Source: an uncultured Gammaproteobacteria bacterium (GTDB lineage: Bacteria > Patescibacteriota > Microgenomatia > Daviesbacterales > UBA10151). From it: DNA of 64,000 nt. Where the stretch lies: the NCBI GenBank assembly GCA_964500725.1, contig CAZCNP010000001.1, positions 321,520 to 385,519 on the forward strand, written 5' to 3'. Both the position numbers and the translations under genes were made by a program. The notes under the pieces are model-generated. The model made no database searches, was not told the origin of the DNA, and saw nothing but the letters and a program-made list of their open reading frames with translations. Below, one piece after another: positions 1,602 through 48,471 of the stretch; position 1 is the stretch's first letter; each line of letters opens with the position of its first letter.

Positions 1602-2420
1602 ATGAAAATTATAAGTCTTTCTAACATTAGCAAAAAAGTTTTAGCCCTTAGTTTTATTGGGTTATCTATCTTATCCCCTCTTAATATTCTAGCCGTCGAA
1701 CAACCAGTTTCTGCTCCAATTACTATTCCAGTGCCTGTCCCACAACCCTCAACTACTCCCATCCCATCTTCTACCCCGATACCTACACCTTCTGCAACTC
1801 CATCCGCTACCCCCTCAGCTACCCCTACTCCAGTACCAGCCGCACCAGAGATGGTTTATCCAAGAAATGGTCAGACCTTAGATTTAGAAGGAGCATATAT
1901 GTTCAAAGTAAAACCTGTAGCAGGAGCCCGTGGTTATTTATTTGGTTTATTCCAAAATGGACAAATGGTATATGAAAATTATAGAGATACTAGACAATTA
2001 AATCCTAATGGAGAATTTGTCCTTACACAATCCAACCCTGCTCATGCCAAGTTTCATGCTGGTAACATGACACTTATGGTTAGAGCTCAAGTTAATGGCA
2101 AATGGACTGATGCACGCACAATTACTGTAACTTTAAAGCAACGGATTTTCTTACCTCAAATTACTACAACTTGGCCTGCTACACTAAAAGAAGGCAGATT
2201 CTTCGTCCTCACAGGTAACAATTTTGGCAATTCAGGCGGAGTCAAATTATACAAAAGCGGAGTTGCTTATAATGCTACAGTTTATTATTGGTCAAACAAT
2301 ACGATCTTTGCTGCTATCCCAGCTAACTTCTCTACGTACAGAACATACAACGTTGGCATACAAGTTAACACCCCAAATAACAAACAAAGTCCTATTGTAT
2401 ATCGCTCTGTAAGTAAATAA
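1602..2420 (+). CDS. Secreted hypothetical protein: signal peptide, Pro/Thr-rich linker, C-terminal beta-rich (IPT/TIG-like) domain
   Basis: Signal peptide MKIISLSNISKKVLALSFIGLSILSPLNILA; PT-rich repeats TPIPSSTPIPTPSATPSATPSATPTP; C-terminal FFVLTGNNFGNSGGVKLYKSG... Confidence 0.5.
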   Translation: MKIISLSNISKKVLALSFIGLSILSPLNILAVEQPVSAPITIPVPVPQPSTTPIPSSTPIPTPSATPSATPSATPTPVPAAPEMVYPRNGQTLDLEGAYMFKVKPVAGARGYLFGLFQNGQMVYENYRDTRQLNPNGEFVLTQSNPAHAKFHAGNMTLMVRAQVNGKWTDARTITVTLKQRIFLPQITTTWPATLKEGRFFVLTGNNFGNSGGVKLYKSGVAYNATVYYWSNNTIFAAIPANFSTYRTYNVGIQVNTPNNKQSPIVYRSVSK

Positions 2421-2438
2421 TTGCTATAGTTAGTATCT

Positions 2439-28400: not shown

Positions 28401-31400
28401 TAGAAATAATACCAGCGCCTCTTTCAATAATGCCATGATGATAGATTCAAATGGAAATGTTGGCATTGGCACAACTGGGCCTAATGCTAAACTGGATGTG
28501 ATTGGTGGAATCAGGGTTACTAATACGAGCAGCACCAATGCTCTTGTGTTTGGTCTTGCAAATAGCAATCATTACCTCAAGCTCTACGCAGATACAGACA
28601 CTGGTATCAGCTACATTAAGAACTTATCTAACTATGATATTAGACTGGGACATGCAAGCAGTGATGATGTAATAATCAACTCTGCTGGTAATGTAGGTAT
28701 AGCAAACTCTGCTCCAAGTTATACCCTGGATGTTATAGGTACAGGCAGATTCTCTTCTGACCTTACTGTTGGAGGAAACTTAACTGTCTCTGGCACTACT
28801 TTTTCTGCCTCAGGAGCTGCAGGATCTTTTGATTCTTTAACAGTTGGTGGAGGTTATGGATCAACTGGAGTAACTATTTCCAATGCTGGGGTAATCCAAG
28901 CCAATGGGACTTTAACTGTTGATTCTACCTCTACTTTAACAGGAGCTGTCAGTATTGGAGCTTCCAATGCTGCTTTAACATTTACTGGTACTACTCCATC
29001 AATCACTTCTGGTTCCTCTGTCTTTGGAATCTTTGCTGGGGGGAATGTGGGAATAGGGACCACCTCTACCATGGGGTCAACTTTGAATGTTTCAGGTAAT
29101 CAGGTTATTGGTTCATCTTTCATTGGTGGAGCTGCTCCACAAAATGGATTAGGGATTCAGGGTAATGTTGGTATAGGCACTACTACTGCTACCTCTTATA
29201 ATCTTCAAGTTGTAGGGACTATTGGTTCAACCAGTGGTATTACTATAGATGCTGGAGCAGGCAGCTCTAATGCAACTCTTACTCTCGCAGGAAGAAATTC
29301 TGGGACAGCCCATTCTGCTTCTGTTTTCTCCAATTTTAACGGAGGCCTTAATCTAAAACCAGCCACAACTGGCAGTGATATTAATGTCTATCTTTGGAAT
29401 AATGCCACAGCTTCTACCTCCAATACCATGCCTTTAAACTTTGATTTAAATGCTACCACAGATGGTAAAACTACTTTTGCTCAAATCATGGGTCTTTCTA
29501 CTGATATTACCTCGGGAGCTGCCTCTGGAGCTTTATCTTTCTACACCAAAAATACTGGATCCTTGAAGGAAAGAATGAGGATAGATCTAAACGGTAACGT
29601 TGGTATTGGTACTTCTGCTCCATTTACTGCATTAACAGGAGCCTTCCAAGTAGCACCAGTTTCTGCCCCTGCTGCTTTCTTTGTAGGAAGTACAGGTAAT
29701 GTTGGGATAGGGACTACTGCCCCTACTAACAACTTATCAGTTATAGGCAATGTTAATACCACTGGTAATTTGGGAGTAGGGACATCTGCCACAGGTGGAT
29801 ATAACCTAACAGTAAATGGAACTGCTAGAATCTCAGGAAATATAGGTATAGGTGGTACTGCTACCTTCAGTAATCCAACTATCTTTAACAATGGTATTAC
29901 CAATAATGGAGTCTTTTCTCAGACAGGACAATTCCTAGCAGGAGATGGATCAGCTGCAGCTCCTTCGTATTCCTTCACCAGTTCCACTGGAGCAGGCCTC
30001 TGGTCACCATCTTCTAACAATATTGCCCTAACTACTGGAACTCCTACTACAACTGGTACCATTAAAGGAATCTCTGTTGATTCCTCTGGTAATGTAGGAA
30101 TTGGGACTTCTAATCCAGCAGGGCTTTTGGACATTGTTAAATTAGGAAATGATAACCCAATCTATATAGATCGATATAGTACAAACAATGGCCATGTTCC
30201 CACAATCCAATTCCGCACCAGCCAACAAAACAGTCTAGGCAACACTGCCACCACTATTAGCAACATGTATGGAAGACTTGAATGGTATGGGAATGATGGT
30301 AACGGCTTCCAAAGGGCTGCCTATATTCAAGCACAGCAGGGTTCAAGTACTGCAACTGATGCTGACTTAACAATATCTACAGGTGCAAGCGGAACAATTT
30401 TCATGGAAGGGAGTTCTGGCAATGTTGGTATTAACAATGCTGCTCCTGTGGCTAAATTACATTTAACAGGAGCTGGGATTACCACTGGAGTTAACTTCCT
30501 CTCCACAGGAGCTGGTGGAGGTGGAGGTCTAGTAGGTATTTTAGATAATGGCAATGTTGGAATAGGGACAACTGCACCAGGACAGAAACTGGATGTGGTT
30601 GGTACTATTAAATTTGGTTCCGGGGGTTATTACTCTTTGGGCACAGATCCTACCCGACTGGAAATAAGAAATGCCGCCAACGATTCCATCGCTCTTTATA
30701 CGAACGGTACGCGCGGCTTACTTATGACTGGGTCTCAAAAAGTCACAGTTGGAGGAGATATTTCTGGTGGTAATAGTTTATTCAATGTTCAAGGTGGTAC
30801 AGCAATTGGGTCAAGTTATTACCTGGCGACAGCTCCTACCAACGGCCTATTAGTTGAAGGTAATGTTGGTATTGGTACCACCAGCCCGATCACTAAATTA
30901 GATGTTAGCGGTGGAGTTGGAGACACTTCATCTACTGATCCTCAATTCTCTCTTTCCAGATGGTCTTCAACTGGTAATAACGAAGTAGTCAAATTTAGAT
31001 TAATGGAGCAAGCTTCAGGTGGCACTAACTTTGGGGTATTTACCATCCAAACCAAGAGTACAGCCTCTGCAGCAGAAAGCGATAGTTACTACACTAATGC
31101 TTTCTCAATCACTGCAGCTGGAAATGTTGGTATTGGTACCACTGGACCAGCTGTTAAGCTTGATGTTGTTGGTGGAGGAAACTATGTTGACGGTTTGAGA
31201 TTAAGATATTCTGCCTTAACTAACGGATGGAACTTTGCTCAGGGGACTGGCGGACAACTTTATTTTGGTTATGGCTCTGCTGCTTCACCAACAACCATGA
31301 TGCTGATAGATACCAATGGCAATGTTGGTATTAATAATGCTGCTCCTGTGGCTAAACTTCATTTAACTGGAGCAGGAACAACTACTGGGGTTAATTTCCT

Positions 31401-34371
31401 CTCTACTGGAGCTGGTGGAGGGGGTGGACTGGTAGGGATTTTAGATAATGGTAATGTTGGGATTGGCAACACCGGACCCTCTCAGTTATTCCAAGTAGGA
31501 CCCAATACTTCTGCTGGATCTTCTGCTATGGTATTTACCTCAGGGGGTAACTTAGGTATTGGCACAACTGGACCTGTTGGTAAGTTTGATGTTACTGATA
31601 CCTCCAACACTGGTGCCTCTTTCTCTCTAACAAATAATACTGCCACTACTATTGGAGCTGGAGTAAATACCTTGGGAGTTCTAGACCTCCAATCCACCTC
31701 TTTGACTACTGGTAACTTTATGAATATAGAATTAAATGCCCTATCTTCTGGAAAAGGTATTAATTTAACCTCTACTTCTACTGCATTTTCTACTGGATCT
31801 TTCTTAAACTTAAATTGGTCTCCTACCACCTCTACTACAGCTACAGGTGACCTAGTTTCAATTGGTATTGGAGTATCTGGAAATGTAGGAAACTTACTTA
31901 ATATTACAGATTCAGGTTCTTCTATCTTTGCTGTATCAGAATCCTCATTAACTACATCACTTCCTGCTAACTTTACTGCTGCTGGAGATGTGGCTATAGC
32001 TTATGATATTAACTTTACCAATCCTACTGCCTCATATGTTAAATCTGCTGCCCCACTATACTTACAAGCTGGAGAAACCTTTAACTCCTCAGACCTGACT
32101 TTGAAAACCTTTAACTCTGGTCAGGGAGTGTTTGATTTTGCAGGAGGAGCCAGTTTTATCCAGCCCCAAACCTGGAACTTCCCTGCTACCACTTCTATCA
32201 ATGCCTTAACATTTTCTGATTCAGCAGGCAATGATTTATTAAACCTGGATACTGCCAATACTAGGGTAGGAATAGGCACTTCTAATCCATCAGCTACTTT
32301 CCAGGTCAATGCCACCGGCACTTCTTCTTTTGTGGTTAACTCTTCAGGTAATGTGGGAATTGGAACTTCTACCACAGGTGTACCTTTGACTATCAGAAAC
32401 CTTGGCACCACCTCAGGAACTGCCTTAGTAGTAGATAGCGAAGGCCAGGTTTATAAAACAAGTTCTTCTTTAAGATATAAAAACAACGTTGCCAATTTAA
32501 ATAATAACTTTGCCAAAATTTTACAGGTTGCTCCCAAATCCTTCAATTATAAAGATACAGGAGCTGCTGATATAGGTTATATAGCAGAAGACTTTGATAG
32601 CTTGGGTCTTACAGATTTGGTACTTTATGATAACCAGGGCAGACCTGATAGTATTAAGTACGATCGGGTTGCCCTTTATGCTGTAGAAATATTGAAAAGC
32701 CAGAATCTCACCCTTAACAACTTAACTAATGCCTTATCTGTAATTGGTGGAAATGTAGGCATTGGAACCACCAATCCAACTGCTGCTTTGGATGTAGTTG
32801 GAGATACTAATATTATGGGGGTACTTTCTGTCAAAAACTCCTTGGGACAAAATCTATTCCAGGTAGATGCTTCTGGTTCTGCCAAACTGGCAGGAACTAT
32901 CACAACTGAGGCAGGAGCTTTTGATATAGCAGAAGACTATCAAGCTGAGGCAGGAATAGAAGCTGGAGATGTGGTTGCTATTTCGGAAGACAGCAGCGCT
33001 GATAACCCACAAGTAGAAAAAACCACCTCCTCCTACCAAAACAATGTCTTAGGTATTATTTCTACCAAAGCAGCCCTTAGACTTAGCTCAGGGTCTTCGA
33101 CCACCGACTCTCAACCTATCGCTTTAGTTGGTAGAGTGCCAGTCAAAGTTTCTACAGAAAATGGAGCTATACAAAAGGGAGATTACTTAACATCCTCATC
33201 TATACCAGGTGTTGCTATGAAAGCAACCAGACCAGGACAAGTTATAGGAAAAGCATTAGAATCATATTCAGAGACAGGAGTTGGCAAAATACTTATCTTT
33301 GTAAATATATCCTTTGCTGATCCAGGCAATTTCTTATCTTCCCTATCTTTGGATGATGAAGGCAATTTGATAATTCCTAAGATAAAAACTGCTAGTATTG
33401 CCCTGGATCCAAAAGTTGCCACAACGCAACAATTGGCACTCGACAATGACCAATTAACAAGCGCAGAGACCTTAAATGATAAGTCTCAAATGTCGAATGA
33501 CACTTACTATGATTTAGGCGGCAAGATTGCCTCGCTGGAGGAAAGAATTACTGAGTATGAAGAAAAGATTAAAGACTTAGAAGCTAAGGTAAATAGTGCC
33601 CCTGAGGCTACTTCTTCAGCAGAAATTAAAGATTTGGCTGATGAACTGTTAACCAGCTCAGAAAAATTGGTAGCAGAGGCCACCTCCTCAGCTACACCTT
33701 CGGCTGTCTTAGCAGATGAAACATTAAACTTAACTCCTCCTGAAGTCCTACTTAACCAGGCTTCTGCTGTCTTGACTGATTTGGAAGTTAAATCAGAAGC
33801 CACTGTTTCTGGACAATTAACTGCCTATAACTTAAATGTCCAAGACGGACTCAAATCTTTGGGAACAACCTCTTTGGGTAATACTACTATTGCTGGAGAT
33901 TTGACTGTTGATGGCACATTATCAATAGAAAATGGTAATGAGATTAATGTCTTAGGTACTCTCTACTTGCAAAAATCTATCCTGGCAACTGCTGTAGATA
34001 TCTTCAATGGCTTGGTAACTATAGATAATAAAGGTAATTTAACAGCTCAAACTATTATAGCTGAGGAAATAGTAACCACTAAATTGACAATTAATGCCAA
34101 GCCTAAAGAGGCTAGCTCCTCAGCTACTTTGGGCACTTCTACTAATGCCACCATTGGATCTGGTAAAATCCTTGCTGGAAAGACCAAAGTAGCCATATTT
34201 ACCAACCAAATCACTGAAGCTTCAAAGGTATTTATCACTTTGAAATCATCTAGCTTGGGTCAAACCCCTTATGTTGAAACTACCCTATCAGGCAAAGGCT
34301 TTGTAGTGAGCATTGATCAAACTGTTGGTAAAGATATTGATTTTGACTGGTGGATTATAAGCACACGATGA
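16417..34371 (+). CDS. Giant surface-fibre protein precursor (5,984 aa): N-terminal MerR/excisionase-like HTH, single TM, hundreds of GNVGIG-type fibre repeats, three inteins, internal peptidase-S74 intramolecular-chaperone domain, C-terminal coiled coil
   Basis: Single uninterrupted ORF. N-terminus LVKIAQASKLLGVHKDTLRRWEKAGKIKVVRDQKGDRLYD is an HTH; FYFMAAGFFLLLVLIGLGYI is a TM. Recurring 35-45-aa repeats carry the motif GNVGIG[TA]..P...L.V.G. Intein and S74 signatures are listed separately. Confidence 0.85.
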   Translation: MLKVNSSKKSLVKIAQASKLLGVHKDTLRRWEKAGKIKVVRDQKGDRLYDVSKLINSAPASQTSKVPTTEQLLKSASQHAQQSTLQPQLPALDYSALLDQTISKDNKQTGRRFYFMAAGFFLLLVLIGLGYIRVLSTQSKPQIITSLENKILAAITSQPLVKINADVKVRGSLSVSNDINGLAIATDSAGFTLTSENGKLTVVGDALLNQDLSSSGSPTFSSLNLSSTSNQLVFQSGGPAGTLTWTPTAARTITLPDTTTTLVGKDTTDTFTNKSISGSSNTFTNIPNSALTNKKITVTAGTNLTGGGDVELGSSITLSLKESPTFSGVVLLSDGTAAAPGLAFSNDTNTGLYRIGTDKIALITGGLATSGITIDSSGNLGIANNSPAYKLDVTGTANITSNTTIGGTLGVTGISTFSSTMGVSSGLSVGSTYSSLSPPTSGAIIEGNVGIGTSAPGSFALNVSGNTYLNGRLETSGNVGIANSAPSFTLDVVGTGRFSSLLNVLGNIGIGTSGAAGSALQVNGGGLFGWGTTSTALSSGAILGVNGNVGVGTTSPLANLHVVGQCVVGETKLKRRRRKKGKNGEWSDEYEDVEIKDIKEGDEILTLDESTGRFVPAKVNALKDMGIKEIFELTTATGKTIRTTGNHPYLALGVEHLALTSHDSASGVTGASLLNSTILSLTRGNKDHRIAVFIDAANLEKSVEKIGFKVHYKNLKRLIASLGSLDYIGYFTVATSSEQNVTLRQSLLRFGYNVVTKPLKLIKTAKGLKPKADVDVEITTEVMERKDDFDLMILFSGDSDFYYPIKLLQEKYGKKVIVISTRYSVSRELLKVADRYIDIAKLKGEIARGQKESPSFATGDSSFDESNLTTALQTISDILPFVKNLGKWTKVSGLKTGQMIAAVGKDNQPQFEKIASIKKVKREQVFDIEVEGTHNFVGNDIVAHNTFITGNVGIGAAFTTSGIVTPTNGLAVQGNVGIGTSTTNAALTVIGGITTTGNVGISNSAPSFTLDVVGTGRFSSDLTVSGTTFSASSAAGSFDSLTVGGGYGSTGVSISNAGVIQANGALTADGLITGSTGLTITGGVVSLNASSNNAVNINTGSSTGALTLGGGSGTVEVASTSWDISTLGAISGVTGITTSGGYTQSGTSENLFTGNVGIGVSATGAKLSLNGGAYIWPITTNIAAPNNGLAVYGRVGIGTTSPATNLHLIDTSGNTEIARFTSTTNSKDSYVQFNTTSSTSSMGLQLSSTAANSVGMRIDGSGNLSFHTGAASSSVMANNNKKMTIDTNGNVGIGSSASNGISAIQLFQVNGTSSSPFVVTSAGNVGIANSAPSFTLDVVGTGRFSSLLNVLGNVGIGTSGVAGSALQVNGGGLFGWGTTSTALSSGAILGVNGNVGVGTTSPLANLHVVGQCVVGETKLKRRRRKKGKNGKWIDEWEEVEIKDIKEGDEILSLNESTGEFIPRKVKGLLGMGMQEVYEILTEEGKTIQTTKNHPYLVDLSETAGTALHFIQKATFEYSERLGKEFYIDHLAGKKIKSKALNDTINFTHTGWNHFTEKSRSINELITRFFALPYAITVLSQASKVKIHEERKKPDMVVEYWIFEEIIEYALIRVVISAVNHGPKFFLSCSWLGTQAEGGILANKKELSLSQAVTPGRRRELVIPQLFTKLFIPKNVKNVKWVEVRNLTVGASIATISGWEKIVSIKNMGRKSTFDIEVAGTHNFLGNNIVAHNTFITGNVGIGAAFTTSGIVTPADGLAVQGNVGIGTTTTNAALTVIGGITSTGNVGIANSAPSYTLDVIGTGRFSSTLLANTFSSSEVTITGGTINNTSIGATVTSTGAFTTLSASGALAANGGITFDNATDTLGAFTAAGTINMNGNIITNIGATDTSFATTGALAITLDGADASGALSVSNASQTSDIFVAKDNTTAVFTIKDGGNVGIGFTSPSALLHLRQTGSGNAFYVEDQADDTSSPFVINADGNVGIANSAPSYTLDVVGTGRISSDLVVNGTTFSASSAAGSFDSLTVGGGYGSTGVSISNAGVIQANGALTADGLITGSTGLTITGGVVSLNASSNNAVNINTGSSTGALTLGGGSGTVEVASTSWDISTLGAISGVTGITTSGGYTQSGTSENLFTGNVGIGVSATGAKLAINGGAYIWPTTTAISAPNDGLAVYGNVGIGTTTPLANLHVVGQCVTGDTRLRRRKKKKNGEWSDEYEDIEIKDIQAGDQILSLNEKTGQFEPHTVLALKDMGIHQTFELITASRKSIRTTANHPYLIKQQKTRLSASSLTEFNADALYSGLSINTLPQNTNNVKSMTARSGTNVDLTGIEPANPDFSDPSVHQYQAHIKLLSHKWIKVSGLKPGMEIATINGWEKIAAIKKFAREQVFDIEVEGTHNFVGNDIVAHNTFITGNVGIGAAFTTSGIVTPTNGLAVQGNVGIGTTTTTNALTVAGNVNTTGNLGVGTSATGGYNLTVQGTTSITGAATFGSTGTFASTLTASNGLTLTTGALNLTSTSGQANLALTNNTNTFTVNGLFGIDTTNNRVGIGTTAPSAARLEVIGAGSVTGRTFWVTGSNLSSGLAVLDNGNVGIGISGPTASLDIVGTSYTTALDQSQTSTNGFYSSSIQAQSFTPSVTGPFMYADIKIQSGGGAPGNTALTLRSGEDVSGTVLATSTSVASLGSGWYRITFDNTPTLTAGQQYTIRYDRTSTNDWGIQGANPYSGGRFYGLGAWKTDDGAFKTYVYTTDTTLADAVKMANNYTSANSGAVLNITTAGIAGSYALRVNDDGTFTDTSPFVIDTTGNVGIANSAPSYTLDVVGTGRISSDLVVNGTTFSASSAAGSFDSLTVGGGYGSTGVSISNAGVIQANGALTADGLITGSTGLTITGGVVSLNASSNNAVNINTGSSTGALTLGGGSGTVEVASTSWDISTLGAISGVTTLNMSGAITAATASNTINGLIINSGALSGVTGITTSGGYTQSGTSENLFTGNVGIGVSATGAKLSLNGGAYIWPITTNIAAPDNGLAVYGNVGIGTTTTNAALTVIGGITSTGNVGIANSAPSYTLDVIGTGRFSSTLLANTFSSSDVTITGGTINDTTIGATITSTGAFTTLTSSGNTTLGTGASSVNTIGSTTTPGTLTLHGATTLDNTFTVSGANLTSLGGNLSFTGTAPSLTSGSSVLGIFAGGNVGIGTTSAMASSFNVNGNQVIGSSFIGGAAPTNGLAVQGNVGIGTTTTTNALTVAGNVNTTGNLGVGTSATGGYNLTVQGTTSITGAATFGSTGTFASTLTASNGLTLTTGALNLTSTSGQANLALTNNTNTFTVNGLFGIDTTNNRVGIGTTAPSAARLEVIGAGSVTGRTFWVTGSNLSSGLAVLDNGNVGIGISGPTASLDIVGTSYTTALDQSQTSTNGFYSSSIQAQSFTPSVTGPFMYADIKIQSGGGAPGNTALTLRSGEDVSGTVLATSTSVASLGSGWYRITFDNTPTLTAGQQYTIRYDRTSTNDWGIQGANPYSGGRFYGLGAWKTDDGAFKTYVYTTDTTLADAVKMANNYTSANSGAVLNITTAGIAGSYALRVNDDGTFTDTSPFVIDTTGNVGIANSAPSYTLDVVGTGRISSNLTIGGSLTSTGNLLPSADDTYDLGSSSARWQDLYVGPTSLNLVCTAGECGTARTWNIGVQESSGVAAAQGNLRIGLSSSRDFLNINTSGNLGIGTSNPGNLLTVSGGNIEISSASPQLIWTDTTAGQDAFGAIANSDYLEFMSGGTRNILVLAGATHANAGNVGIGTATPAFKLDVNGGINSGTSAGYSVGSWLGMSYAANGASYNLNLGGINASTWVGLGLFTSGTEKVRIDTNGALYSGNIGTSIANANLFVSGATSGNVGIGTTTPNTRLDVIGNGTYAADFMNGSVGIGTSSPQATLHVASAFTAVSDTGSTGGNLIIQGTDTTRDPTHGAALSFYLPATTAGGNPYVQARIIGAPDNSSNNNTSGRLIFQTRNNTSASFNNAMMIDSNGNVGIGTTGPNAKLDVIGGIRVTNTSSTNALVFGLANSNHYLKLYADTDTGISYIKNLSNYDIRLGHASSDDVIINSAGNVGIANSAPSYTLDVIGTGRFSSDLTVGGNLTVSGTTFSASGAAGSFDSLTVGGGYGSTGVTISNAGVIQANGTLTVDSTSTLTGAVSIGASNAALTFTGTTPSITSGSSVFGIFAGGNVGIGTTSTMGSTLNVSGNQVIGSSFIGGAAPQNGLGIQGNVGIGTTTATSYNLQVVGTIGSTSGITIDAGAGSSNATLTLAGRNSGTAHSASVFSNFNGGLNLKPATTGSDINVYLWNNATASTSNTMPLNFDLNATTDGKTTFAQIMGLSTDITSGAASGALSFYTKNTGSLKERMRIDLNGNVGIGTSAPFTALTGAFQVAPVSAPAAFFVGSTGNVGIGTTAPTNNLSVIGNVNTTGNLGVGTSATGGYNLTVNGTARISGNIGIGGTATFSNPTIFNNGITNNGVFSQTGQFLAGDGSAAAPSYSFTSSTGAGLWSPSSNNIALTTGTPTTTGTIKGISVDSSGNVGIGTSNPAGLLDIVKLGNDNPIYIDRYSTNNGHVPTIQFRTSQQNSLGNTATTISNMYGRLEWYGNDGNGFQRAAYIQAQQGSSTATDADLTISTGASGTIFMEGSSGNVGINNAAPVAKLHLTGAGITTGVNFLSTGAGGGGGLVGILDNGNVGIGTTAPGQKLDVVGTIKFGSGGYYSLGTDPTRLEIRNAANDSIALYTNGTRGLLMTGSQKVTVGGDISGGNSLFNVQGGTAIGSSYYLATAPTNGLLVEGNVGIGTTSPITKLDVSGGVGDTSSTDPQFSLSRWSSTGNNEVVKFRLMEQASGGTNFGVFTIQTKSTASAAESDSYYTNAFSITAAGNVGIGTTGPAVKLDVVGGGNYVDGLRLRYSALTNGWNFAQGTGGQLYFGYGSAASPTTMMLIDTNGNVGINNAAPVAKLHLTGAGTTTGVNFLSTGAGGGGGLVGILDNGNVGIGNTGPSQLFQVGPNTSAGSSAMVFTSGGNLGIGTTGPVGKFDVTDTSNTGASFSLTNNTATTIGAGVNTLGVLDLQSTSLTTGNFMNIELNALSSGKGINLTSTSTAFSTGSFLNLNWSPTTSTTATGDLVSIGIGVSGNVGNLLNITDSGSSIFAVSESSLTTSLPANFTAAGDVAIAYDINFTNPTASYVKSAAPLYLQAGETFNSSDLTLKTFNSGQGVFDFAGGASFIQPQTWNFPATTSINALTFSDSAGNDLLNLDTANTRVGIGTSNPSATFQVNATGTSSFVVNSSGNVGIGTSTTGVPLTIRNLGTTSGTALVVDSEGQVYKTSSSLRYKNNVANLNNNFAKILQVAPKSFNYKDTGAADIGYIAEDFDSLGLTDLVLYDNQGRPDSIKYDRVALYAVEILKSQNLTLNNLTNALSVIGGNVGIGTTNPTAALDVVGDTNIMGVLSVKNSLGQNLFQVDASGSAKLAGTITTEAGAFDIAEDYQAEAGIEAGDVVAISEDSSADNPQVEKTTSSYQNNVLGIISTKAALRLSSGSSTTDSQPIALVGRVPVKVSTENGAIQKGDYLTSSSIPGVAMKATRPGQVIGKALESYSETGVGKILIFVNISFADPGNFLSSLSLDDEGNLIIPKIKTASIALDPKVATTQQLALDNDQLTSAETLNDKSQMSNDTYYDLGGKIASLEERITEYEEKIKDLEAKVNSAPEATSSAEIKDLADELLTSSEKLVAEATSSATPSAVLADETLNLTPPEVLLNQASAVLTDLEVKSEATVSGQLTAYNLNVQDGLKSLGTTSLGNTTIAGDLTVDGTLSIENGNEINVLGTLYLQKSILATAVDIFNGLVTIDNKGNLTAQTIIAEEIVTTKLTINAKPKEASSSATLGTSTNATIGSGKILAGKTKVAIFTNQITEASKVFITLKSSSLGQTPYVETTLSGKGFVVSIDQTVGKDIDFDWWIISTR
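18112..19251 (+). mobile_element. Intein 1 (380 aa) in the giant ORF, carrying an NYN/LabA-like domain in the endonuclease position
   Basis: Starts CVVGETKL (block A). TTGNHPYL is block B (TxxH). VFDIEVEGTHNFVGNDIVAHN is block F/G, ending HN; the +1 residue is T (TFITGNVGIG). In frame: aa 566-945 of the host ORF. Confidence 0.8.
18478..18933 (+). other. NYN (LabA-like, PIN-related) nuclease domain embedded in intein 1
   Basis: IAVFIDAANL ... DVDVEITTEV ... LFSGDSDFYYPIKLLQEKYGKKVIVIS ... ADRYIDI. Clear paralogy to the free-standing NYN protein at 47173..47667 (AFIDASNI ... CDVDLTMDML ... LTGDGDFAPLL...IIIIS ... GDEHIDF). Confidence 0.7.
20650..21612 (+). mobile_element. Intein 2 (321 aa) with an unknown ~200-aa insert domain
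   Basis: CVVGETKLKRRRRKKGKNGKWIDEW...TTKNHPYL ... STFDIEVAGTHNFLGNNIVAHN|TFITGNVGIG; aa 1412-1732. The insert (20905..21500) contains PDMVVEYWIFEEIIEY and IDHLAGKK with no recognisable family. Confidence 0.75.
23002..23643 (+). mobile_element. Intein 3 (214 aa), mini-intein
   Basis: CVTGDTRLRRRKKKKNGEWSDEY...TTANHPYL ... QVFDIEVEGTHNFVGNDIVAHN|TFITGNVGIG; aa 2196-2409. No endonuclease-sized insert. Confidence 0.75.
23393..23461 (-). ncRNA. tRNA-like element antisense to intein 3: canonical acceptor stem, anticodon arm and T-arm, non-canonical D-arm
   Basis: Reverse complement GGGCCTG-GTACTGGTGTACGCT-CGGGT-CTGAGAA-ATCTG-GGTTT-GCGGG-TTCAATT-CCCGT-CAGGTCC-A. 7-bp acceptor with one G-U; T-loop TTCAATT; anticodon loop CTGAGAA. 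The D region can only form GTAC/GTAC with a 4-nt loop. Confidence 0.25.
23702..27270 (+). repeat. Intragenic tandem duplication: 1,196-bp perfect repeat (23702..24897 = 26075..27270), period 2,373 bp
   Basis: Identical nucleotide strings. Antisense ORFs 24285..24530 and 26658..26903 in the ORF track have identical translations. Both copies encode TNGLAVQGNVGIGTTTTTNALTVAGNVNTTG...GTGRISS. Confidence 0.85.
32455..32735 (+). other. Peptidase S74 / intramolecular chaperone auto-processing domain (as in phage endosialidase and tail-fibre C-termini), internal to the giant ORF
   Basis: SSLRYKNNVANLNNNFAKILQVAPKSFNYKDTGAADIGYIAEDFDSLGLTDLVLYDNQGRPDSIKYDRVALYAVEILKS matches the S-x-R-x-K-x-N-[IV]...Y.YK.....IG.IA.[ED] pattern. 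About 550 further residues follow it, including a coiled coil (SLEERITEYEEKIKDLEAKV). Confidence 0.6.
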
Positions 34372-44886: not shown

Positions 44887-44893
44887 GCTTAAG

Positions 44894-44966
44894 TATCCCT
44901 GGAGGGAATTGCACCCCCGACCAACCCCTTAGGACGGGGCTGCTCTATCTACTGAGCTACAGGGAC
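44894..44966 (-). tRNA. tRNA-Arg (anticodon CCT)
   Basis: Reverse complement GTCCCTG-TA-GCTC-AGTAGATA-GAGC-A-GCCCC-GTCCTAA-GGGGT-TGGTC-GGGGG-TGCAATT-CCCTC-CAGGGAT-A. Cloverleaf with G1-U72 and an atypical T-loop (G at position 55). Confidence 0.6.
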
Positions 44967-45011
44967 AATCATATGTATAATTTTATCACTAAAGAAGATA
45001 TAATTCGATCA

Positions 45012-45084
45012 CGGGACGTAGTTCATCGGCAGAACGCTACTTTCGGGAAGTAGAAGCAAGTGAGTTCAATTCTCCTCGTCCCGA
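45012..45084 (+). tRNA. tRNA-Pro (anticodon CGG)
   Basis: CGGGACG-TA-GTTC-ATCGGCA-GAAC-G-CTACT-TTCGGGA-AGTAG-AAGCAA-GTGAG-TTCAATT-CTCCT-CGTCCCG-A. Perfect acceptor, D and anticodon stems; G37; one mismatch in the T-stem. Confidence 0.6.
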
Positions 45085-45421
45085 CTATAGGTCTATATTA
45101 GCTTCAAAATAACTCTTGACATTTGGGTAATTTTCGGGTAATACTAAATGCCAGTCCTCTGTAAAGAATAGACAAGTCGAATTAATATGCGAAAACTTTC
45201 CTTGTCAAAATAAGTTTAAAAGAAGACTTAGTCAACGATCGTTCCGTAATTTTTGCTCCCAATCCTGTGCTGCAACTCTCAACAATAAATGTAGACAAAT
45301 TAATAAATACAGGATCAATAAACCTCCCTCTAAAACACTTCATACACAGAAACCTAATATTCCTCTTAAATATTGTCAGTATTGCGGAAATAGATGTTCA
45401 TTAAATCGCAATTATTGCTCG

Positions 45422-45823
45422 ATGAAATGCTGGGGAAAAGCTCATGAACTTTCACAAGAAATATTGCTTAAACAAATTAGGTTGTTGTCATTAAAATTAG
45501 GCAGATCGCCCACTAGGCGGGAGTGCAAATATCATACAACTTGCCAAAGACATTTTGGATCATGGAATAACGCTTTAATAGCAGCTGGCTTAACTCCACA
45601 TCGTTCCCTAAATCAACGTATGTATAAAAGACGTATCTGCATTGCTAGAGATGGCCATATTTGTAATTCAGTCTCGGAATTAATAATTGATAACTGGCTC
45701 CATAAACACAACATCACTCATCAAAAAGAAGCACCCTACCCTAAGGGAAAATTTGTTGCTGATTGGGCTATTGCTACAAATACTCTAGTTGAATATTTTA
45801 GTAAGGAATTGAGAATAACTTAA
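45422..45823 (+). pseudogene. Remnant of a zinc-ribbon plus Vsr/DUF559-like (PD-(D/E)xK) endonuclease gene, truncated at both ends
   Basis: The in-frame upstream sequence YPLKYCQYCGNRCSLNRNYCS has no start codon (stop at 45356). The core CNSVSELIIDNWLHKHNITHQKEAPYPKGKFVADWAIATNTLVEYF resembles the DUF559/Vsr motif. The C-terminus is cut by the overlapping recombinase gene. Confidence 0.45.
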
Positions 45824-47086
45824 AATAGCCTTCTTATTTAATTCCATCTCCTTCTTAATAGCTTCTAACTGGTCATCAGCTTCCTTTAGTTTCTTATCTA
45901 AACCCTTTAGATCAGCACTAAACACTCCTTTTATGTAGCTATCAGTCTCACTTCTTAATAAATCCTTTGTCTTCTCAATCTTGTTGTCTAAATTCCGCCT
46001 TATTTGTTGTAAGGACCTTCTTCTGCTCTCAAGCTCTAACTCCTTATCTCTAATTACATTCCTCATTTCATCCACATAGTGGCTGTAAACTGCTTTAGAG
46101 GTGAACTTATTATCCTTTAGGAACTCACAAACAAAATCAACTATTACATGGGCTCTAATTGACTTGCCATATAATTTACAGTCAGGATTATCACATCTGT
46201 AGTAAAAGTAATTAGTCAAACCTTTTTTATTTTGCTTCGGGGTTATACCTGCTATCATGTTCTCTTCACAATCCCCACAAATCACTGCTCCCCTCAGTAA
46301 ATCAGCCTGTATAGTGCCTTCTGCATTGGCTCTGAGCCGATTCTTGAATGCTCTTTCCATATTGGAGAATTTATTTATCTTTAAGAATTCGTCTACTGTG
46401 ACCATTGGCACAAAGTCGTAAATCTCAGTTAAGTCAACAAATTGCTCACCGTATTTGAGTACTCCTGTATAAAATGGATCCTTAAACATCTCCGAAATTC
46501 TACTTCTGCCCCATTTGTAGACTTCATGCTTATCTCCTGTTGAATCCACTGCTCTGGTGAAACCATTGTCATTGAGGTACTTCATAACTACTTCTTGGGT
46601 TATTCCATCTAACCTCATCTTCCAACCCGTTTTTAGAAGAGTAAAATTATCACCGTCTGGTCTTAGGAACTTATTAATATCTTTGTAATAGCCATATTTT
46701 GTTCTGCTTAGGTATTTTCCTTCTTCAATACTCCTTCTAATACCTCGTTTAACATTGTCACTTAATTGGTCTGAGTATTGTTTACTTAAAACGAAGGCTA
46801 TTCCTAAAAGCATTTTCCCAGCTGTATTATTTTGAAAGGTGAAACTAACAAAATGCAGATCCTTTATTATTTGTTTATCTAATAAATCAATAACTTCACC
46901 ATTTGAGCCTACCACCTGATTATCTGCCAAATTTTGTGCAGGTTGTTGATCCTGCTGGGATTGTTGACTATTGTTGGTATCTGTTGACTGGCTATTGTCT
47001 GACTGTTGAGGTTGAGAGTTATCACCTTGAGAAGCTAAACTTGAGGCTAAATCTGTTAAATTATCTTTCTGAATTTTGTCATCCAT
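45785..47086 (-). mobile_element. Large serine recombinase gene missing most of its N-terminal catalytic (resolvase) domain; replaced by S/Q-rich low complexity
   Basis: Only the end of the resolvase domain is present (DLHFVSF...GKMLLGIAFVLSKQYSDQLSDNVKRGIRRSIEEGKY). It is followed by the recombinase domain (YLSRTKYGYYKD), the zinc ribbon (CGDC...YYRCDNPDC) and a coiled-coil tail. The N-terminal 60 aa are SQGDNSQPQQSDNSQSTDTNNSQQSQQDQQ; no catalytic-Ser motif. Confidence 0.6.
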
Positions 47087-47172
47087 ACGCTTACCATTAT
47101 ATCACCCAAAAATTTGCATAAAAAGTGGGGTTGTGTTAGTATATCTACATAACACTGAGGGAAGATTCTAAT

Positions 47173-47667
47173 TTAGGGTCTCCCTCTTTTTTTGTACTCA
47201 ATTAAATATTTCAAACTTCCAAAATCAATATGCTCATCTCCTGCGATTTTCTTGATTTCTCTGGCAGTTCTTTTTGGAGAAGAAATTATAATGATCTTTT
47301 TCTTTTTAGAAATTAAATAAGTAAGTAGTGGAGCAAAATCCCCATCACCAGTTAACACAATCGCTCTTTTATATTCTTTTATTTTAAGAAGCATGTCCAT
47401 AGTCAAATCTACATCACAGTTTGCTTTAGTTCTTGCTCCATATCTTTTGATTTCCTTTACTCTTAAAATATATCCAAATTGCTCTAATTTTTTTAAGAAT
47501 TTCTCTTTCTTTTCACTCTTTGAGTCTCTACCATAATAAAAGAAGACTTTAGAAATCGAAAATTTATTTTTTAGATATTGAATTAGTTTCTCTTGATCTA
47601 TAAACCAACCTTCAGCTCTGGCACCATAAATAATATTAGAAGCATCTATAAAAGCATAAGTTTTCAT
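47173..47667 (-). CDS. Free-standing NYN-domain (LabA-like) protein, paralogue of the intein-embedded NYN domain
   Basis: MKTYAFIDASNIIYGAR...CDVDLTMDML...AIVLTGDGDFAPLL...IIIISS...GDEHIDF. Confidence 0.7.
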   Translation of the reverse strand: MKTYAFIDASNIIYGARAEGWFIDQEKLIQYLKNKFSISKVFFYYGRDSKSEKKEKFLKKLEQFGYILRVKEIKRYGARTKANCDVDLTMDMLLKIKEYKRAIVLTGDGDFAPLLTYLISKKKKIIIISSPKRTAREIKKIAGDEHIDFGSLKYLIEYKKRGRP

Positions 47668-47865
47668 TGCCTAAACTATAGCATAACTGGGTAACTCTGA
47701 GCTGGAAACTGCCTTTTTCCCTTAAAATAGCTTTGGACTTCTGAATTAAACAAATCAACTATTTCTATATTCTTTGTAATATAATTAAGCAGTTCAAGGG
47801 AAGTTTCAGTCTCCCGACTTAGCTTGTATCTTGTCAAAATAAACCAGATTAACTAAACTAAAAAT

Positions 47866-48471
47866 ATGGCAGAAGCTGGTGGAGAAAAACTAGTGGGAGG
47901 TAATACAAGTTTAAGAAGAAATAAGCTTCCGCGCAGGCGTTTTTTAGAAACCGTACTAGTACTTGGGGCCCAACTTGCAATAGGCAAGGCTGGTGGAATT
48001 ATAAAACTAGTAGAGATTGGAACAGGAGCAACTCAAGCTAGTCTTAAAACATTAGAGCAAAACCCTGCCAGCGCTACAGCAACTCAAAGGCAAGCAATAG
48101 AAGAATTCAATAAACTGGAAGATGAAATAAGACGAAACCCTAAAAGTCTAGAACTTCAACGAAAAAGGGTGTACCAACTAAAGACCGGCTCTCAAGGAGC
48201 CTGGCTGGTACCAGAACCATTTACTGCTGATAAACAAATTACTATGGCCAATGGAAATAAACTACTCGCAGATACTGACTATAATATCCCAGGAGGGGCC
48301 ATTAAAGTGCTGGGTAAAAACCCCTTTAACAGTACTGGCTTGCCCCAAATAGAGTGGTATTTTATAACTACTCAACGAGATCGGCAAACTCACAAAGTCG
48401 CTGGTGGATATTTCGCCTATGCTGGAAGTTTTGTCCCAACTGCCAGAGGCACTGTTGCCCAACATAAATAA
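47866..48471 (+). CDS. Hypothetical exported protein with a twin-arginine-like signal
   Basis: LPRRRFLETVLVLGAQLAIGKAGG (RRxFL followed by a hydrophobic core). Confidence 0.35.
   Translation: MAEAGGEKLVGGNTSLRRNKLPRRRFLETVLVLGAQLAIGKAGGIIKLVEIGTGATQASLKTLEQNPASATATQRQAIEEFNKLEDEIRRNPKSLELQRKRVYQLKTGSQGAWLVPEPFTADKQITMANGNKLLADTDYNIPGGAIKVLGKNPFNSTGLPQIEWYFITTQRDRQTHKVAGGYFAYAGSFVPTARGTVAQHK

What the first reader, a model, noticed from the sequence alone, without database searches (positions are those of the whole stretch)
44894..47667. Decayed integrative element at the tRNA-Arg/tRNA-Pro pair
Immediately downstream of divergent tRNA-Arg(CCT) and tRNA-Pro(CGG) lie three things. First, an endonuclease-like gene with no start codon and a cut C-terminus (zinc ribbon plus Vsr/DUF559-like core). 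Second, a large serine recombinase that has lost the catalytic-serine part of its resolvase domain; an S/Q-rich leader replaces it, and a good -10 element (TGaTATAAT) sits just upstream. Third, an NYN-domain gene paralogous to the intein-borne NYN. This looks like the remnant of a tRNA-targeted integrative element. It is a plausible donor of the NYN domain that later moved into intein 1.
Basis: inference. Interest (0 to 1): 0.55.

Follow-up and report, generated by a model that had tools for sequence, protein, structure and literature searches.

The report
Two stacked dead elements at tRNA-Pro
Next to the tRNA-Pro(CGG) gene of this candidate-phyla-radiation bacterium lie the wrecks of two separate selfish DNA elements, a homing-endonuclease-like gene cassette and a serine-recombinase integrative element, with an intact NYN nuclease gene inserted later; it is an ordinary genome scar whose history can be read almost step by step.

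Summary
tRNA-Arg(CCT) and tRNA-Pro(CGG) are followed by an endonuclease-like pseudogene, a large serine recombinase (LSR) gene without its catalytic part, and an intact NYN gene.

The single-element reading is only partly right. The LSR belongs to a family, found here only in CPR/Patescibacteria-type assemblies, whose 3' end overlaps a convergent tRNA in 63 of 80 loci. Some loci have 17-23 nt tRNA-end repeats at the far end.

The window copy is cut at both ends:
- A 1.84 kb deletion between 11-bp repeats fused a small S/Q-rich element ORF in frame to recombinase codon ~117.
- Its last 63 codons and the attachment site on the tRNA side (called attL here) are gone.

The endonuclease gene is a separate ~1 kb cassette. 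Its predicted fold resembles homing endonuclease I-Bth0305I. It occurs without any recombinase at the same tRNA-Pro in relatives. One relative (L092) shows the intact intermediate: tRNA-Pro, endonuclease, 23-nt tRNA-end copy, recombinase 3' end.

NYN is a 585-bp insertion absent from the closest intact element. It is only 28% identical to the intein NYN, so the donor idea fails. A second assembly reproduces the structure. dN/dS of 0.03 shows no relaxation of constraint, which fits recent decay. Interest is modest.

The parts
44893..44966 (-). tRNA-Arg(CCT). It is the conserved partner of tRNA-Pro(CGG) next to the sortase gene.
   Evidence: ARAGORN and Rfam. The same pair sits beside sortase in most of the 80 related loci.
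45012..45085 (+). tRNA-Pro(CGG), intact. It is the target of both elements.
   Evidence: The recombinase 3' end overlaps this tRNA in L003 and L156. The endonuclease cassette abuts it in L082, L091, L092, L083 and L106.
45086..45145 (+). Spacer of the endonuclease cassette with its promoter-like site (TTGACA 45116-45121, 18 nt, AATACT 45140-45145).
   Evidence: It aligns with the spacer between tRNA-Pro and the endonuclease start in L091 and L092. It is the best promoter-like match in the region, 10 of 12.
45146..45802 (+). Endonuclease-like pseudogene, corresponding to codons ~36-224 of a ~290-aa protein. It contains Zn-ribbon CxxC pairs, HNH_repeat and the first part of a Vsr-like PD-(D/E)xK domain. 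A 106-113 bp deletion between 7-bp repeats (AATGTCA) removed codons 1-35 and put the start ATG out of frame.
   Evidence: Fold evidence.
45791..45806 (.). Junction between the truncated 3' end of the endonuclease gene and the truncated 3' end of the recombinase gene. The break is at 45802/45803, at the microhomology GAATA(T/G)TT.
   Evidence: Homology to endonuclease loci ends at 45799 and homology to recombinase loci starts at 45803.
45803..46893 (-). Core of the large serine recombinase gene (residues 115-480 of the 543-aa relative P0001). It includes the end of the resolvase domain, the recombinase domain, the zinc ribbon and part of the C-terminal helical region.
   Evidence: 85-86% nucleotide identity to L001, L002 and L003. 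Domains. dN/dS 0.02-0.03.
46883..47086 (-). S/Q-rich leader. It is the 5' part of a separate small element ORF (78 aa in L003), fused in frame to the recombinase core at the 11-bp repeat TTATTGATTTA (46883-46893).
   Evidence: L003 204-408 aligns here. L003 409-2249 is missing from the window. Homologues of this ORF lie in seven other recombinase elements.
47096..47104 (-). Extended -10-like element TGATATAAT, 9 nt before the ATG of the fusion ORF. It lies inside the NYN insertion.
   Evidence: Read directly from the sequence. No -35 partner was found by the scan.
47088..47672 (-). 585-bp insertion carrying the intact NYN (LabA-like) gene (ORF 47173-47667). In L003 this position holds only 8 nt.
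   Evidence: More than 1000 free-standing homologues at 67-98% identity. All 20 substitutions and the 10-nt indel between the window and L093 lie in this gene.
47676..47837 (-). Small 53-aa ORF. It is the outermost gene of the recombinase element.
   Evidence: 87% nucleotide identity to L003 49-195. Homologues sit at the far end of the elements in L019 and L066.
47791..47819 (+). Far-end att-like remnant of the recombinase element. AGTTCAA (47791-47797) and TCCCGACT (47812-47819) copy the T-loop and the last 7 nt (+1) of tRNA-Pro.
   Evidence: Homology to L003 ends exactly at 47819. TCCCGACT occurs only at 45079 and 47812 in the whole window. The same GTCGG(G) motif abuts the small ORF in L019 and L066.
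47866..48471 (+). ORF of 201 aa with unknown function. It lies outside the element, between the far-end att remnant and the ndk gene, and is listed only as the flank.
   Evidence: No family match. No relative in any fetched locus or in the metagenome scan.

Best explanation
The interval between tRNA-Pro(CGG) and ndk is an insertion hot spot. In this genome it holds two stacked, inactivated selfish elements plus one later insertion.

1. **Recombinase element goes in.** An integrative element with a large serine recombinase (LSR) integrated at the 3' end of tRNA-Pro(CGG). The recombinase gene converged on the tRNA and overlapped its last ~20 nt. A small ORF and an S/Q-rich ORF sat at the far end. 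This step is inferred; relatives show it intact.
2. **Endonuclease cassette goes in.** A ~1 kb cassette, made of a promoter-bearing spacer and a ~290-aa homing-endonuclease-like gene, then inserted at the same tRNA end. It landed between the tRNA and the recombinase element and displaced a 23-nt copy of the tRNA end. This step is inferred for the window; relative L092 shows the intact state.
3. **Three deletions at short repeats disabled both elements.**
   - About 0.34 kb was lost across the endonuclease 3' end, the displaced tRNA copy (the element's tRNA-side att site, attL) and the recombinase 3' end.
   - About 0.11 kb removed the endonuclease start.
   - A further 1.84 kb removed two cargo genes and the recombinase catalytic domain, and fused the S/Q ORF in frame to recombinase codon ~117.
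4. **NYN goes in.** A 585-bp NYN gene cassette inserted between the small ORF and the S/Q ORF.

The order of steps 3 and 4 is not resolved.

The resulting 433-aa ORF has no nucleophile serine, no C-terminal tail and no attL, so the remnant cannot move. NYN is the only part that still looks functional. The junctions, the homologies and the intermediate states are shown. The order of events and how the endonuclease cassette inserts (homing by break repair) are inferred.
For: - **Family behaviour.** Homologues are ~545-aa full-length LSRs. In 63 of 80 loci the gene's 3' end runs into a convergent tRNA. Seven loci have direct repeats of 17-23 nt of the tRNA end (23 nt with one mismatch in L077), and L069 has a whole tRNA copy, 2.2-7.9 kb upstream of the recombinase gene, which delimits elements of about 3.5-9.5 kb.
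- **Same locus in relatives.** L156 (94% identity to P0001) and L163 carry intact copies at tRNA-Pro(CGG) beside sortase.
- **Junctions mapped against L003.** The 1.84 kb deletion lies at TTATTGATTTA, the NYN insertion is +585 bp, and the recombinase 3' end is replaced.
- **Element genes at the far end.** The S/Q ORF and the small ORF recur in other elements near their far ends.
- **Endonuclease cassette is independent.** It is absent from 81 recombinase loci. It stands alone at tRNA-Pro(CGG) in L091, L082, L083 and L106. In L087 it is flanked by the tRNA-Pro end and a 22-nt copy of it.
- **The intermediate exists.** L092 reads tRNA-Pro, full-length endonuclease, 23-nt exact tRNA-end copy, intact recombinase 3' end.
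- **Repeats at the endonuclease breaks.** A 7-bp repeat marks the 5' deletion and a microhomology marks the 3' junction.
- **Far-end att remnant.** It is unique within the window.
- **The structure is real.** A second assembly, L093, reproduces it.
- **No relaxed constraint detectable.** dN/dS of the core is 0.023-0.032 against intact copies, versus 0.023-0.038 among intact copies. This fits recent decay.
- **Hot spot.** The ndk to tRNA-Pro gap ranges from 7 bp to 6.2 kb in 28 relatives.
Against: - The far-end repeat in the window is only 8 bp plus a 7-bp T-loop match. In the family, short repeats of 9-11 nt were no commoner on the correct strand than on the control strand.
- The window's tRNA-Pro resembles the type seen in endonuclease-bearing relatives more than that of L003. 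A one-sided recombination that imported part of the locus therefore cannot be excluded.
- Most endonuclease-only loci (L091, L082, L083, L106, L117) show no flanking tRNA-end repeat. The cassette's insertion mechanism is therefore unproven.
- The low dN/dS and the intact 433-aa frame are equally compatible with a truncated protein that is still under selection.
- No excision, integration or cleavage was observed. All inference rests on metagenome assemblies.
Confidence: 0.75

Rival explanations
1. One reading: a single decayed integrative element whose cargo was the endonuclease, the recombinase and the NYN gene. All three would lie between the tRNA-Pro end and a far-end repeat.
For: The 8-bp repeat TCCCGACT brackets all three genes, at 45079-45086 and 47812-47819. 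All three are absent from most relatives at this locus.
Against: - The endonuclease gene occurs in none of the 81 recombinase loci.
- It stands alone next to tRNA-Pro(CGG), followed directly by ndk, in L091 and L106.
- In the family the recombinase 3' end abuts the tRNA itself, which an endonuclease gene in between would prevent.
- NYN is absent from L003, and the two ORFs that flank it in the window lie side by side in L003 and L019.
Confidence: 0.07
2. The 433-aa S/Q::recombinase fusion is a domesticated, catalytically dead DNA-binding protein, perhaps working with NYN. For example, it could occupy the tRNA-Pro attachment site and block new integrations.
For: - The frame is intact, with a start codon and a -10-like element.
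- The recombinase and zinc-ribbon DNA-binding domains are kept.
- dN/dS is 0.03.
- The gene is identical in two assemblies.
Against: - The window-to-relative divergence can have accumulated while the gene was still intact, so it says nothing about selection after the truncation.
- The two assemblies are identical here, which gives no test.
- The C-terminus (TKIFN*) is an accidental read-through into antisense endonuclease sequence.
- Apart from L093, no other locus or listed homologue was found with this fusion. The one apparent N-truncated relative that was checked, P0101, is a gene-calling artefact.
- There was no PADLOC match.
Confidence: 0.1
3. The order of the parts arose by one-sided (homology-facilitated illegitimate) recombination, not by sequential insertion. 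The partners would be an endonuclease-bearing allele and a recombinase-bearing allele from two strains, joined at the GAATA.TT microhomology.
For: - There is microhomology at the junction.
- The window's tRNA-Pro (acceptor CGGGACG/CGTCCCG) matches endonuclease-bearing relatives L091 (64/74) and L106 better than L003 (55/76).
- A ComEC competence gene lies nearby in the window.
Against: L092 shows that sequential insertion really occurs and gives the same gene order with both genes intact. A plain ~0.34 kb deletion from that state is the simpler explanation. This rival changes only the route, not what the locus is.
Confidence: 0.15
4. The truncations are assembly or binning artefacts produced by mixed strains.
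For: The data are metagenomic, and alternative alleles exist at this locus in related populations.
Against: A separately assembled 2905-bp contig from run SRR12113433 has every junction identical. The deletion junctions rest on repeats of only 7-11 bp, too short to mislead an assembler (inference).
Confidence: 0.03

Closest known systems
tRNA-gene genomic islands as catalogued by Islander (PMC4383910, title and abstract as listed)
   Same: - Site-specific insertion at the 3' end of a tRNA gene.
- The tRNA is regenerated.
- A displaced tRNA fragment marks the far end (17-23 nt in relatives; 8 bp here).
- The integrase gene lies next to the tRNA.
- Elements stack at one tRNA.
   Different: Islander islands use tyrosine integrases. 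Here the enzyme is a large serine recombinase, its last codons are encoded by the tRNA's own 3' end, and the copy in the window is dead.
Tycheposons of Prochlorococcus (bioRxiv 10.1101/2020.12.28.424599, read)
   Same: - Small cargo-carrying elements with site-specific integrases; the paper's figure legend labels flanking full and partial tRNA genes.
- A minority (27 of 937) carry a large serine recombinase.
- Terminase-small-subunit-like genes occur. Here the 137-aa ORF of L003 is a weak match.
   Different: - The host group differs (CPR versus cyanobacteria).
- No replication genes were seen here in the few elements inspected.
- Membership was not tested, and no sequence comparison with tycheposon recombinases was run.
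Characterised large serine recombinases: serine integrases of phages and the excision recombinase XisF
   Same: Relatives have the resolvase, recombinase and zinc-ribbon architecture. The phage integrase family phrog_95 matches at E = 7.5e-64. There is a weak match to NCBIfam XisF at 66.6 bits.
   Different: - The XisF cut-off of 375 bits is far from met.
- From my own knowledge, well-studied serine integrases usually target protein-coding genes or intergenic sites with little attP/attB identity. Papers that mention both large serine recombinases and tRNA genes were listed but not read.
- The window copy lacks the catalytic domain.
Homing endonuclease I-Bth0305I (PDB 3r3p) and free-standing homing endonuclease genes
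   Same: The predicted C-terminal domain has the same Vsr-like PD-(D/E)xK fold (probability 1.0, TM 0.63). The Pfam 'homing endonuclease associated repeat' is present. The cassette shows presence/absence polymorphism at one precise genomic site.
   Different: - The gene is free-standing on the chromosome, next to tRNA-Pro(CGG).
- It has four N-terminal CxxC pairs.
- Sequence identity to 3r3p is 14% and the Foldseek E-value only 0.02.
- No cleavage data exist.
NYN / LabA-like (PF01936) proteins
   Same: Full-length Pfam match, E = 4e-21. The acidic motifs FIDASN, CDVD and GDGDF are present.
   Different: The function of this subfamily is unknown. It sits in varied contexts: beside ychF and rpsF in L094, and in a variable region in L098.

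Membership tests
Large serine recombinase (functional enzyme) | N-terminal resolvase catalytic domain with the nucleophile serine | tested here: not met
   Only profile positions 81-145 of PF00239 match, below the cut-off. The YARKST motif present in all 19 aligned relatives is replaced by the S/Q leader.
Large serine recombinase (functional enzyme) | Recombinase domain (PF07508) and zinc beta-ribbon (PF13408) | tested here: met
   Both score above the Pfam cut-offs. The core is 91-93% identical to the full-length relative P0001.
Large serine recombinase (functional enzyme) | Complete C-terminal region | tested here: not met
   The last 63 residues, conserved in the family, are replaced by TKIFN*.
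tRNA-integrating genomic island | Integrase gene directly abutting an intact target tRNA | tested here: not met
   In the window, 717 bp of endonuclease cassette separate tRNA-Pro from the recombinase remnant. The feature is met in 63 of 80 relatives.
tRNA-integrating genomic island | Displaced copy of the tRNA 3' end as a direct repeat at the far end | tested here: inconclusive
   No repeat of 12 nt or more, allowing 1-3 mismatches. An 8-bp repeat, unique within the window, lies exactly at the end of homology to L003. Seven relatives have repeats of 17-23 nt.
tRNA-integrating genomic island | Presence/absence polymorphism among relatives at the same site | tested here: met
   Ten of 28 relatives have less than 100 bp between ndk and tRNA-Pro. 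Others carry 0.2-6.2 kb of varied content.
Homing endonuclease (Vsr-like PD-(D/E)xK, I-Bth0305I type) | Catalytic-domain fold | tested here: met
   The AF2 model of homologue P0121 has pLDDT 89. The best PDB match is 3r3p (probability 1.0, TM 0.63 on the target, E = 0.02), followed by TnsA and Vsr. The sequence-only PDB search found nothing. The window copy is cut in the middle of this domain.
Homing endonuclease (Vsr-like PD-(D/E)xK, I-Bth0305I type) | The gene occupies one specific target site and is present or absent there | tested here: met
   It lies next to tRNA-Pro(CGG), or a fragment of it, in all 8 distinct contexts examined. It is absent from that site in most relatives.
Homing endonuclease (Vsr-like PD-(D/E)xK, I-Bth0305I type) | Site-specific DNA cleavage of the empty target | not testable with these tools
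   Needs purified protein and tRNA-Pro(CGG) DNA.
NYN / LabA-like domain | Match to PF01936 with the conserved acidic residues | tested here: met
   E = 4.2e-21 over residues 3-142. The acidic motifs were read directly from the translation.
Donor of the intein-borne NYN | The island's NYN is the closest free-standing relative of the intein NYN | tested here: not met
   The two are 28% identical. Free-standing proteins at 44-55% identity exist, and all 150 best-listed cluster representatives score at least 68.8 bits to the intein NYN, against 37 bits (phmmer) or 54 bits (BLASTP) for the island's gene.

The most novel reading that the evidence does not exclude
The ~1 kb endonuclease cassette may be a previously undescribed kind of tRNA-targeting mobile element without a recombinase. 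It would be a free-standing Vsr-like homing endonuclease gene that inserts precisely at the 3' end of tRNA-Pro(CGG) and keeps the tRNA intact. When a serine-recombinase element already sits there, the cassette separates that element from its tRNA-side attachment site. tRNA-Pro(CGG) in CPR bacteria would then be a site where two unrelated selfish elements compete.
Probability: 0.3. Interest if true: 0.6.

Novelty: new member of a known kind. Interest (0 to 1): 0.4.

Why it matters
For this window the result is mainly a clean annotation:
- 45146-45802 is an endonuclease pseudogene.
- 45785-47086 is a dead recombinase fusion and should not be called an integrase.
- NYN is an intact later insertion.
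- The NYN-to-intein donor idea can be dropped.

Two leads go beyond the window.
- **A tRNA-targeting recombinase family.** A large family of large serine recombinases, found here only in CPR/Patescibacteria-type assemblies, appears to integrate at tRNA 3' ends (Pro, Leu, Val, Asp, Ala, Glu, Met, Arg). The recombinase's last codons are supplied by the tRNA. tRNA targeting is classically the territory of tyrosine integrases, and these enzymes come with natural, predictable target sites.
- **A possible new mobile cassette.** A homing-endonuclease-like cassette tied to tRNA-Pro(CGG) may be a new minimal tRNA-targeting element.

Both leads can be tested with cloned proteins and short DNA substrates.

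Tried and rejected
- **Long tRNA-end repeats in the window.** Searches for the ends of either tRNA (12-25 nt, 1-3 mismatches) found none. The generic repeat finder gave only chance-level short repeats. The real far-end remnant was missed because it carries an indel and is only 8+7 bp. It was found later through the L003 homology boundary.
- **Short tRNA-end repeats across the family.** Repeats of 9-11 nt were no commoner on the correct strand than on the control strand, so I make no claim from them.
- **Endonuclease gene as a plain chromosomal neighbour.** I first read it as a gene cut by an element inserted at its 3' end, and then considered an imported patch by one-sided recombination. L092 gave a simpler route.
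- **Missing gene ends elsewhere.** A search for the endonuclease 3' end or the recombinase ends elsewhere in the window found nothing.
- **ORF201.** No family, no relatives in any fetched locus, and the metagenome scan was empty. It remains unexplained flank.
- **Sequence-only PDB search with the endonuclease profile.** Only chance zinc-ribbon hits came back.
- **Recurrent N-truncated recombinases.** P0101 looked like one, but it is full-length by tblastn.
- **Defence-system reading.** PADLOC gave only domain-level matches for NYN and the endonuclease, and none for the fusion ORF.
- **Rfam.** It found nothing beyond the two tRNAs.
- **Literature.** No paper in the library combines 'NYN domain' with 'intein'. 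None ties serine recombinases to CPR integrative elements; the two hits are both about inoviruses.

Full report
**1. What is there**

ARAGORN and Rfam both find tRNA-Arg(CCT) at 44893-44966 (-) and tRNA-Pro(CGG) at 45012-45085 (+), and nothing else RNA-like.

Downstream lie three features:
- An open frame at 45131-45823 (+) with no canonical start before 45422. Its only Pfam match is HNH_repeat.
- A 433-aa ORF at 45785-47086 (-) with the Recombinase and zinc-ribbon domains but only the tail of the Resolvase domain.
- A 164-aa NYN gene at 47173-47667 (-).

The surrounding genes are MreB, a PEGA protein, sortase, ndk, a metallophosphoesterase, ArgRS, ComEC and LeuRS, plus giant surface-type proteins. 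The best-labelled relatives are Daviesbacteria and other Patescibacteria. The source is therefore a Microgenomates-type CPR bacterium.

**2. The recombinase belongs to a tRNA-targeting family**

The closest proteins are full-length large serine recombinases of ~545 aa from CPR metagenomes. The best, P0001, is 91% identical over the shared part.

The alignment shows the window protein is cut at both ends. The first ~115 residues, including the invariant YARKST motif, are replaced by an S/Q-rich leader. The last 63 residues are replaced by TKIFN*.

Several homologues end in peptide strings that look like translated tRNA. I fetched 80 family loci from one genome per species and scanned them.
- In 63 of 80, a convergent tRNA starts within a few bases of the end of the recombinase homology, and in all 63 the ORF runs into the tRNA (median 22 nt).
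- The tRNAs are Pro (29 loci), Leu, Val, Asp, Ala, Glu, Met and Arg.
- In L017, L036, L042, L052, L066, L077 and L080, a direct repeat of the tRNA 3' end lies 2.2-7.9 kb upstream of the recombinase gene (17-22 nt exact; 23 nt with one mismatch in L077). L069 has a whole second tRNA-Pro there. These repeats delimit small elements of about 3.5-9.5 kb.
- Most loci show no long repeat within 10 kb. Repeats of 9-11 nt are not distinguishable from chance.

**3. The closest intact element shows what happened to the recombinase**

Contig L003 (86% nucleotide identity) has this order: small ORF, a 78-aa S/Q-rich ORF, a 287-aa Cys-rich ORF, a 137-aa ORF weakly like a terminase small subunit, the 543-aa recombinase, then tRNA-Pro(CGG).

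Its alignment to the window:

| L003 | Window | Feature |
|---|---|---|
| 49-195 | 47819-47673 | small ORF |
| 204-408 | 47087-46883 | S/Q ORF |
| 2250-3340 | 46893-45803 | recombinase core |
| 3517-3583 | 45082-45013 | tRNA-Pro |

So the S/Q 'leader' is the 5' part of a separate element gene. L003 409-2249 (1.84 kb) is missing from the window. The two breakpoints share the 11-bp repeat TTATTGATTTA, which the window keeps once at 46883-46893. The fusion happens to be in frame.

Homologues of the S/Q ORF and the small ORF occur in other family elements (L008, L009, L011, L017, L019, L021, L066), close to the far-end repeat where one is known. Both are therefore element genes.

**4. The endonuclease-like gene is a different element**

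Its homologues form a family of 285-300 aa with four N-terminal CxxC pairs, the HNH_repeat and a conserved C-terminal domain. An AlphaFold model of P0121 (pLDDT 89) matches the catalytic domain of homing endonuclease I-Bth0305I best, then TnsA and Vsr.

None of the 81 recombinase loci contains this gene. Relatives that share the window's gene order carry it without any recombinase:
- L091: MreB, PEGA, sortase, tRNA-Arg, tRNA-Pro, endonuclease, ndk, with 9 nt between the endonuclease and ndk genes.
- L082 and L106 are similar.

DNA alignment shows that the window keeps the spacer and promoter-like site downstream of tRNA-Pro (45086-45145). It lost 106-113 bp between two AATGTCA repeats, which removed codons 1-35 and left the start ATG out of frame. 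Its homology ends at 45799-45802.

In all eight distinct contexts examined, the gene lies next to tRNA-Pro(CGG) or a fragment of it, in three different orientations.

The decisive contig is L092. It reads: tRNA-Pro(CGG), the full 297-aa endonuclease gene, 4 nt, an exact 23-nt copy of the tRNA-Pro 3' end, and, overlapping that copy, the intact 3' end of a convergent recombinase gene ending ...GRGQEN*. That is the window's gene order with both genes whole.

The window follows from such a state by a deletion of about 0.34 kb. It runs from endonuclease codon ~224 to recombinase residue 480, at the microhomology GAATA(T/G)TT. It removes the displaced tRNA copy, which was the element's tRNA-side att site, attL.

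**5. The far end and the hot spot**

Homology between L003 and the window stops exactly at 47819. The last 8 nt, TCCCGACT (47812-47819), equal the last 7 nt of tRNA-Pro plus one. The T-loop heptamer AGTTCAA is also there (47791-47797).

TCCCGACT occurs only twice in the 64-kb window on either strand. In L019 and L066 the same GTCGG(G) motif abuts the start of the small ORF. I read this as the element's far-end att remnant. It is short, so it is suggestive rather than proven.

ORF201 (47866-48471) lies beyond it and has no relatives in anything I could search.

Across 28 relatives that span ndk and tRNA-Pro, the gap ranges from 7 bp to 6.2 kb. Ten are below 100 bp. L156 and L163 hold intact family recombinases, and L108, L138, L154 and L166 hold partial matches to the recombinase.

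**6. NYN**

Window 47088-47672 (585 bp; the NYN ORF plus 85 bp holding the TGATATAAT element) replaces 8 nt of L003, between the small ORF and the S/Q ORF. Those two ORFs are also adjacent in L019. NYN therefore came in later, or was lost from both relatives.

It belongs to a very large family of free-standing 164-200-aa proteins at 67-98% identity. Family members sit in unrelated contexts, for example beside ychF and rpsF in L094 and in a variable region with a second NYN gene in L098.

The intein-borne NYN is real. It sits between Hint blocks in the 5984-aa ORF. It is only 28% identical to the island's NYN. Its nearest relatives are 80-83% identical within proteins of 380-630 aa. Free-standing proteins reach 44-55%, and all 150 best-listed cluster representatives score higher to it than the island's gene does. 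The donor idea is not supported.

**7. Real and recent**

Contig L093 (run SRR12113433) covers 44896-47790 with every junction. All 20 substitutions and the 10-nt indel fall in the NYN gene, mostly its 3' end, and 16 of the 20 are synonymous. The other ~2.4 kb are identical. The structure is therefore not an assembly error. The NYN gene has exchanged a patch with another allele.

For the recombinase core, dN/dS against intact copies is 0.023-0.032. Among intact copies it is 0.023-0.038, and about 0.03 on the window's own branch. No relaxation of constraint is visible, so the truncations are recent relative to the divergence from these relatives. The alternative, a retained function, is less likely.

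**8. Mechanism**

*Shown:* the homologies, the junctions, the repeats at the junctions, the intermediate states in relatives, and the loss of the catalytic domain, the C-terminus and attL.

*Inferred:*
1. Integration of the recombinase element at tRNA-Pro.
2. Insertion of the endonuclease cassette at the same tRNA end, closest to the tRNA as expected for the newer arrival.
3. The three deletions and the NYN insertion, in unknown order.

How the cassette moves is also inferred. Homing, meaning cleavage of the empty site and repair from an occupied allele, fits the fold and the site specificity. But most endonuclease-only loci lack flanking repeats.

A variant route, one-sided recombination between two alleles, is not excluded. 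The window's tRNA-Pro resembles that of endonuclease-bearing relatives more than that of L003.

**9. Comparison with what is known, and novelty**

As a scar at a tRNA hot spot this is a familiar kind of object; compare the Islander description of tRNA islands, listed. The recombinase type is unusual for tRNA targets but not unprecedented: 27 of 937 tycheposon-type elements carry a large serine recombinase.

The library search found no description of this CPR family, nor of NYN domains in inteins. That is weak evidence of absence.

I rate the finding itself as a new member of a known kind, with modest interest. The endonuclease cassette tied to tRNA-Pro(CGG) is the most novel lead.

Noticed in passing
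window 16417-34371 (+), residues ~565-945 of the ORF (about 18110-19250): The 5984-aa ORF starts with a MerR-type HTH. It contains a real intein (Cys start, TGNHPY block, ...VAHN|T end) whose endonuclease slot holds an NYN domain. A second Hint module lies at residues ~1438-1547. The intein NYN's relatives include NYN domains inside proteins of 700-3900 aa. No paper in the library combines 'NYN domain' and 'intein'.
   Followed up: partly
L002-L081 (80 recombinase loci), e.g. L003 3511-3532: In all 63 loci with a convergent tRNA, the recombinase ORF ends inside the tRNA gene (median overlap 22 nt). The last residues (...SRGGEN, ...GRGPGN) and the stop codon are thus encoded by the tRNA's 3' end. 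If the crossover is at the extreme 3' end of the tRNA, the protein's tail would differ between the integrated and excised forms.
   Followed up: partly
L092 1-1328; L087 5656-7007; L180 1-56; L182 2940-2965: The endonuclease-like gene is always next to tRNA-Pro(CGG) or a fragment of it, in three orientations. In L087 it lies, together with a small HTH gene, between the tRNA-Pro 3' end and a 22-nt (91%) direct copy of it. In L182 only a degenerate tRNA-Pro 3' fragment precedes it, beside Thoeris genes (ThsA/ThsB).
   Followed up: partly
window 47188-47506 versus L093: All 20 substitutions (16 synonymous) and a 10-nt indel between two otherwise identical assemblies cluster in the NYN gene, mostly its last 80 bp. 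This looks like a gene-conversion patch from another NYN allele or paralogue.
   Followed up: partly
L003 385-408 and 2238-2260; L163 2162-2431: The small S/Q-rich element protein ends with a motif (SNGEVIDL in L003, NNGDRIEL in L163) that resembles the recombinase's conserved AGEIIDLLDK. At the DNA level this similarity provided the 11-bp repeat used by the 1.84 kb deletion. Whether the resemblance has a function is unknown.
   Followed up: no
L163 1545-2010: A HicB/HicA-like pair lies between ndk and the S/Q-type ORF of the recombinase element, at the same tRNA-Pro(CGG) locus in a relative. I judged this by reading the translations; no domain search was run.
   Followed up: no
L013 7490-7528; L081 9801-9825; L073 11843-11865; L075 1757-1776; L028 11755-11772: Exact 18-39-nt copies of the 5' half of the target tRNA lie 85-220 nt beyond the tRNA, on the side away from the recombinase. 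They may be scars of other insertions at the tRNA's 5' side.
   Followed up: no
window 45201-45213 and 47830-47842: An exact 13-nt direct repeat, CTTGTCAAAATAA, occurs once inside the endonuclease fragment and once just outside the far-end att remnant. About 0.5 such repeats are expected by chance in this AT-rich 3.9 kb, so it is probably coincidence.
   Followed up: partly
window 24288-24533 and 26661-26906 (-): Two antisense frames inside the giant ORF gave identical weak scores in the six-frame scan. This points to an internal repeat of about 2.4 kb in the 5984-aa gene.
   Followed up: no
L088 7644-8780: In one of two otherwise collinear contigs, an IS605-type OrfB/TnpB gene is inserted between rpsO and another NYN-family gene (27% identical to the window's).
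   Followed up: no
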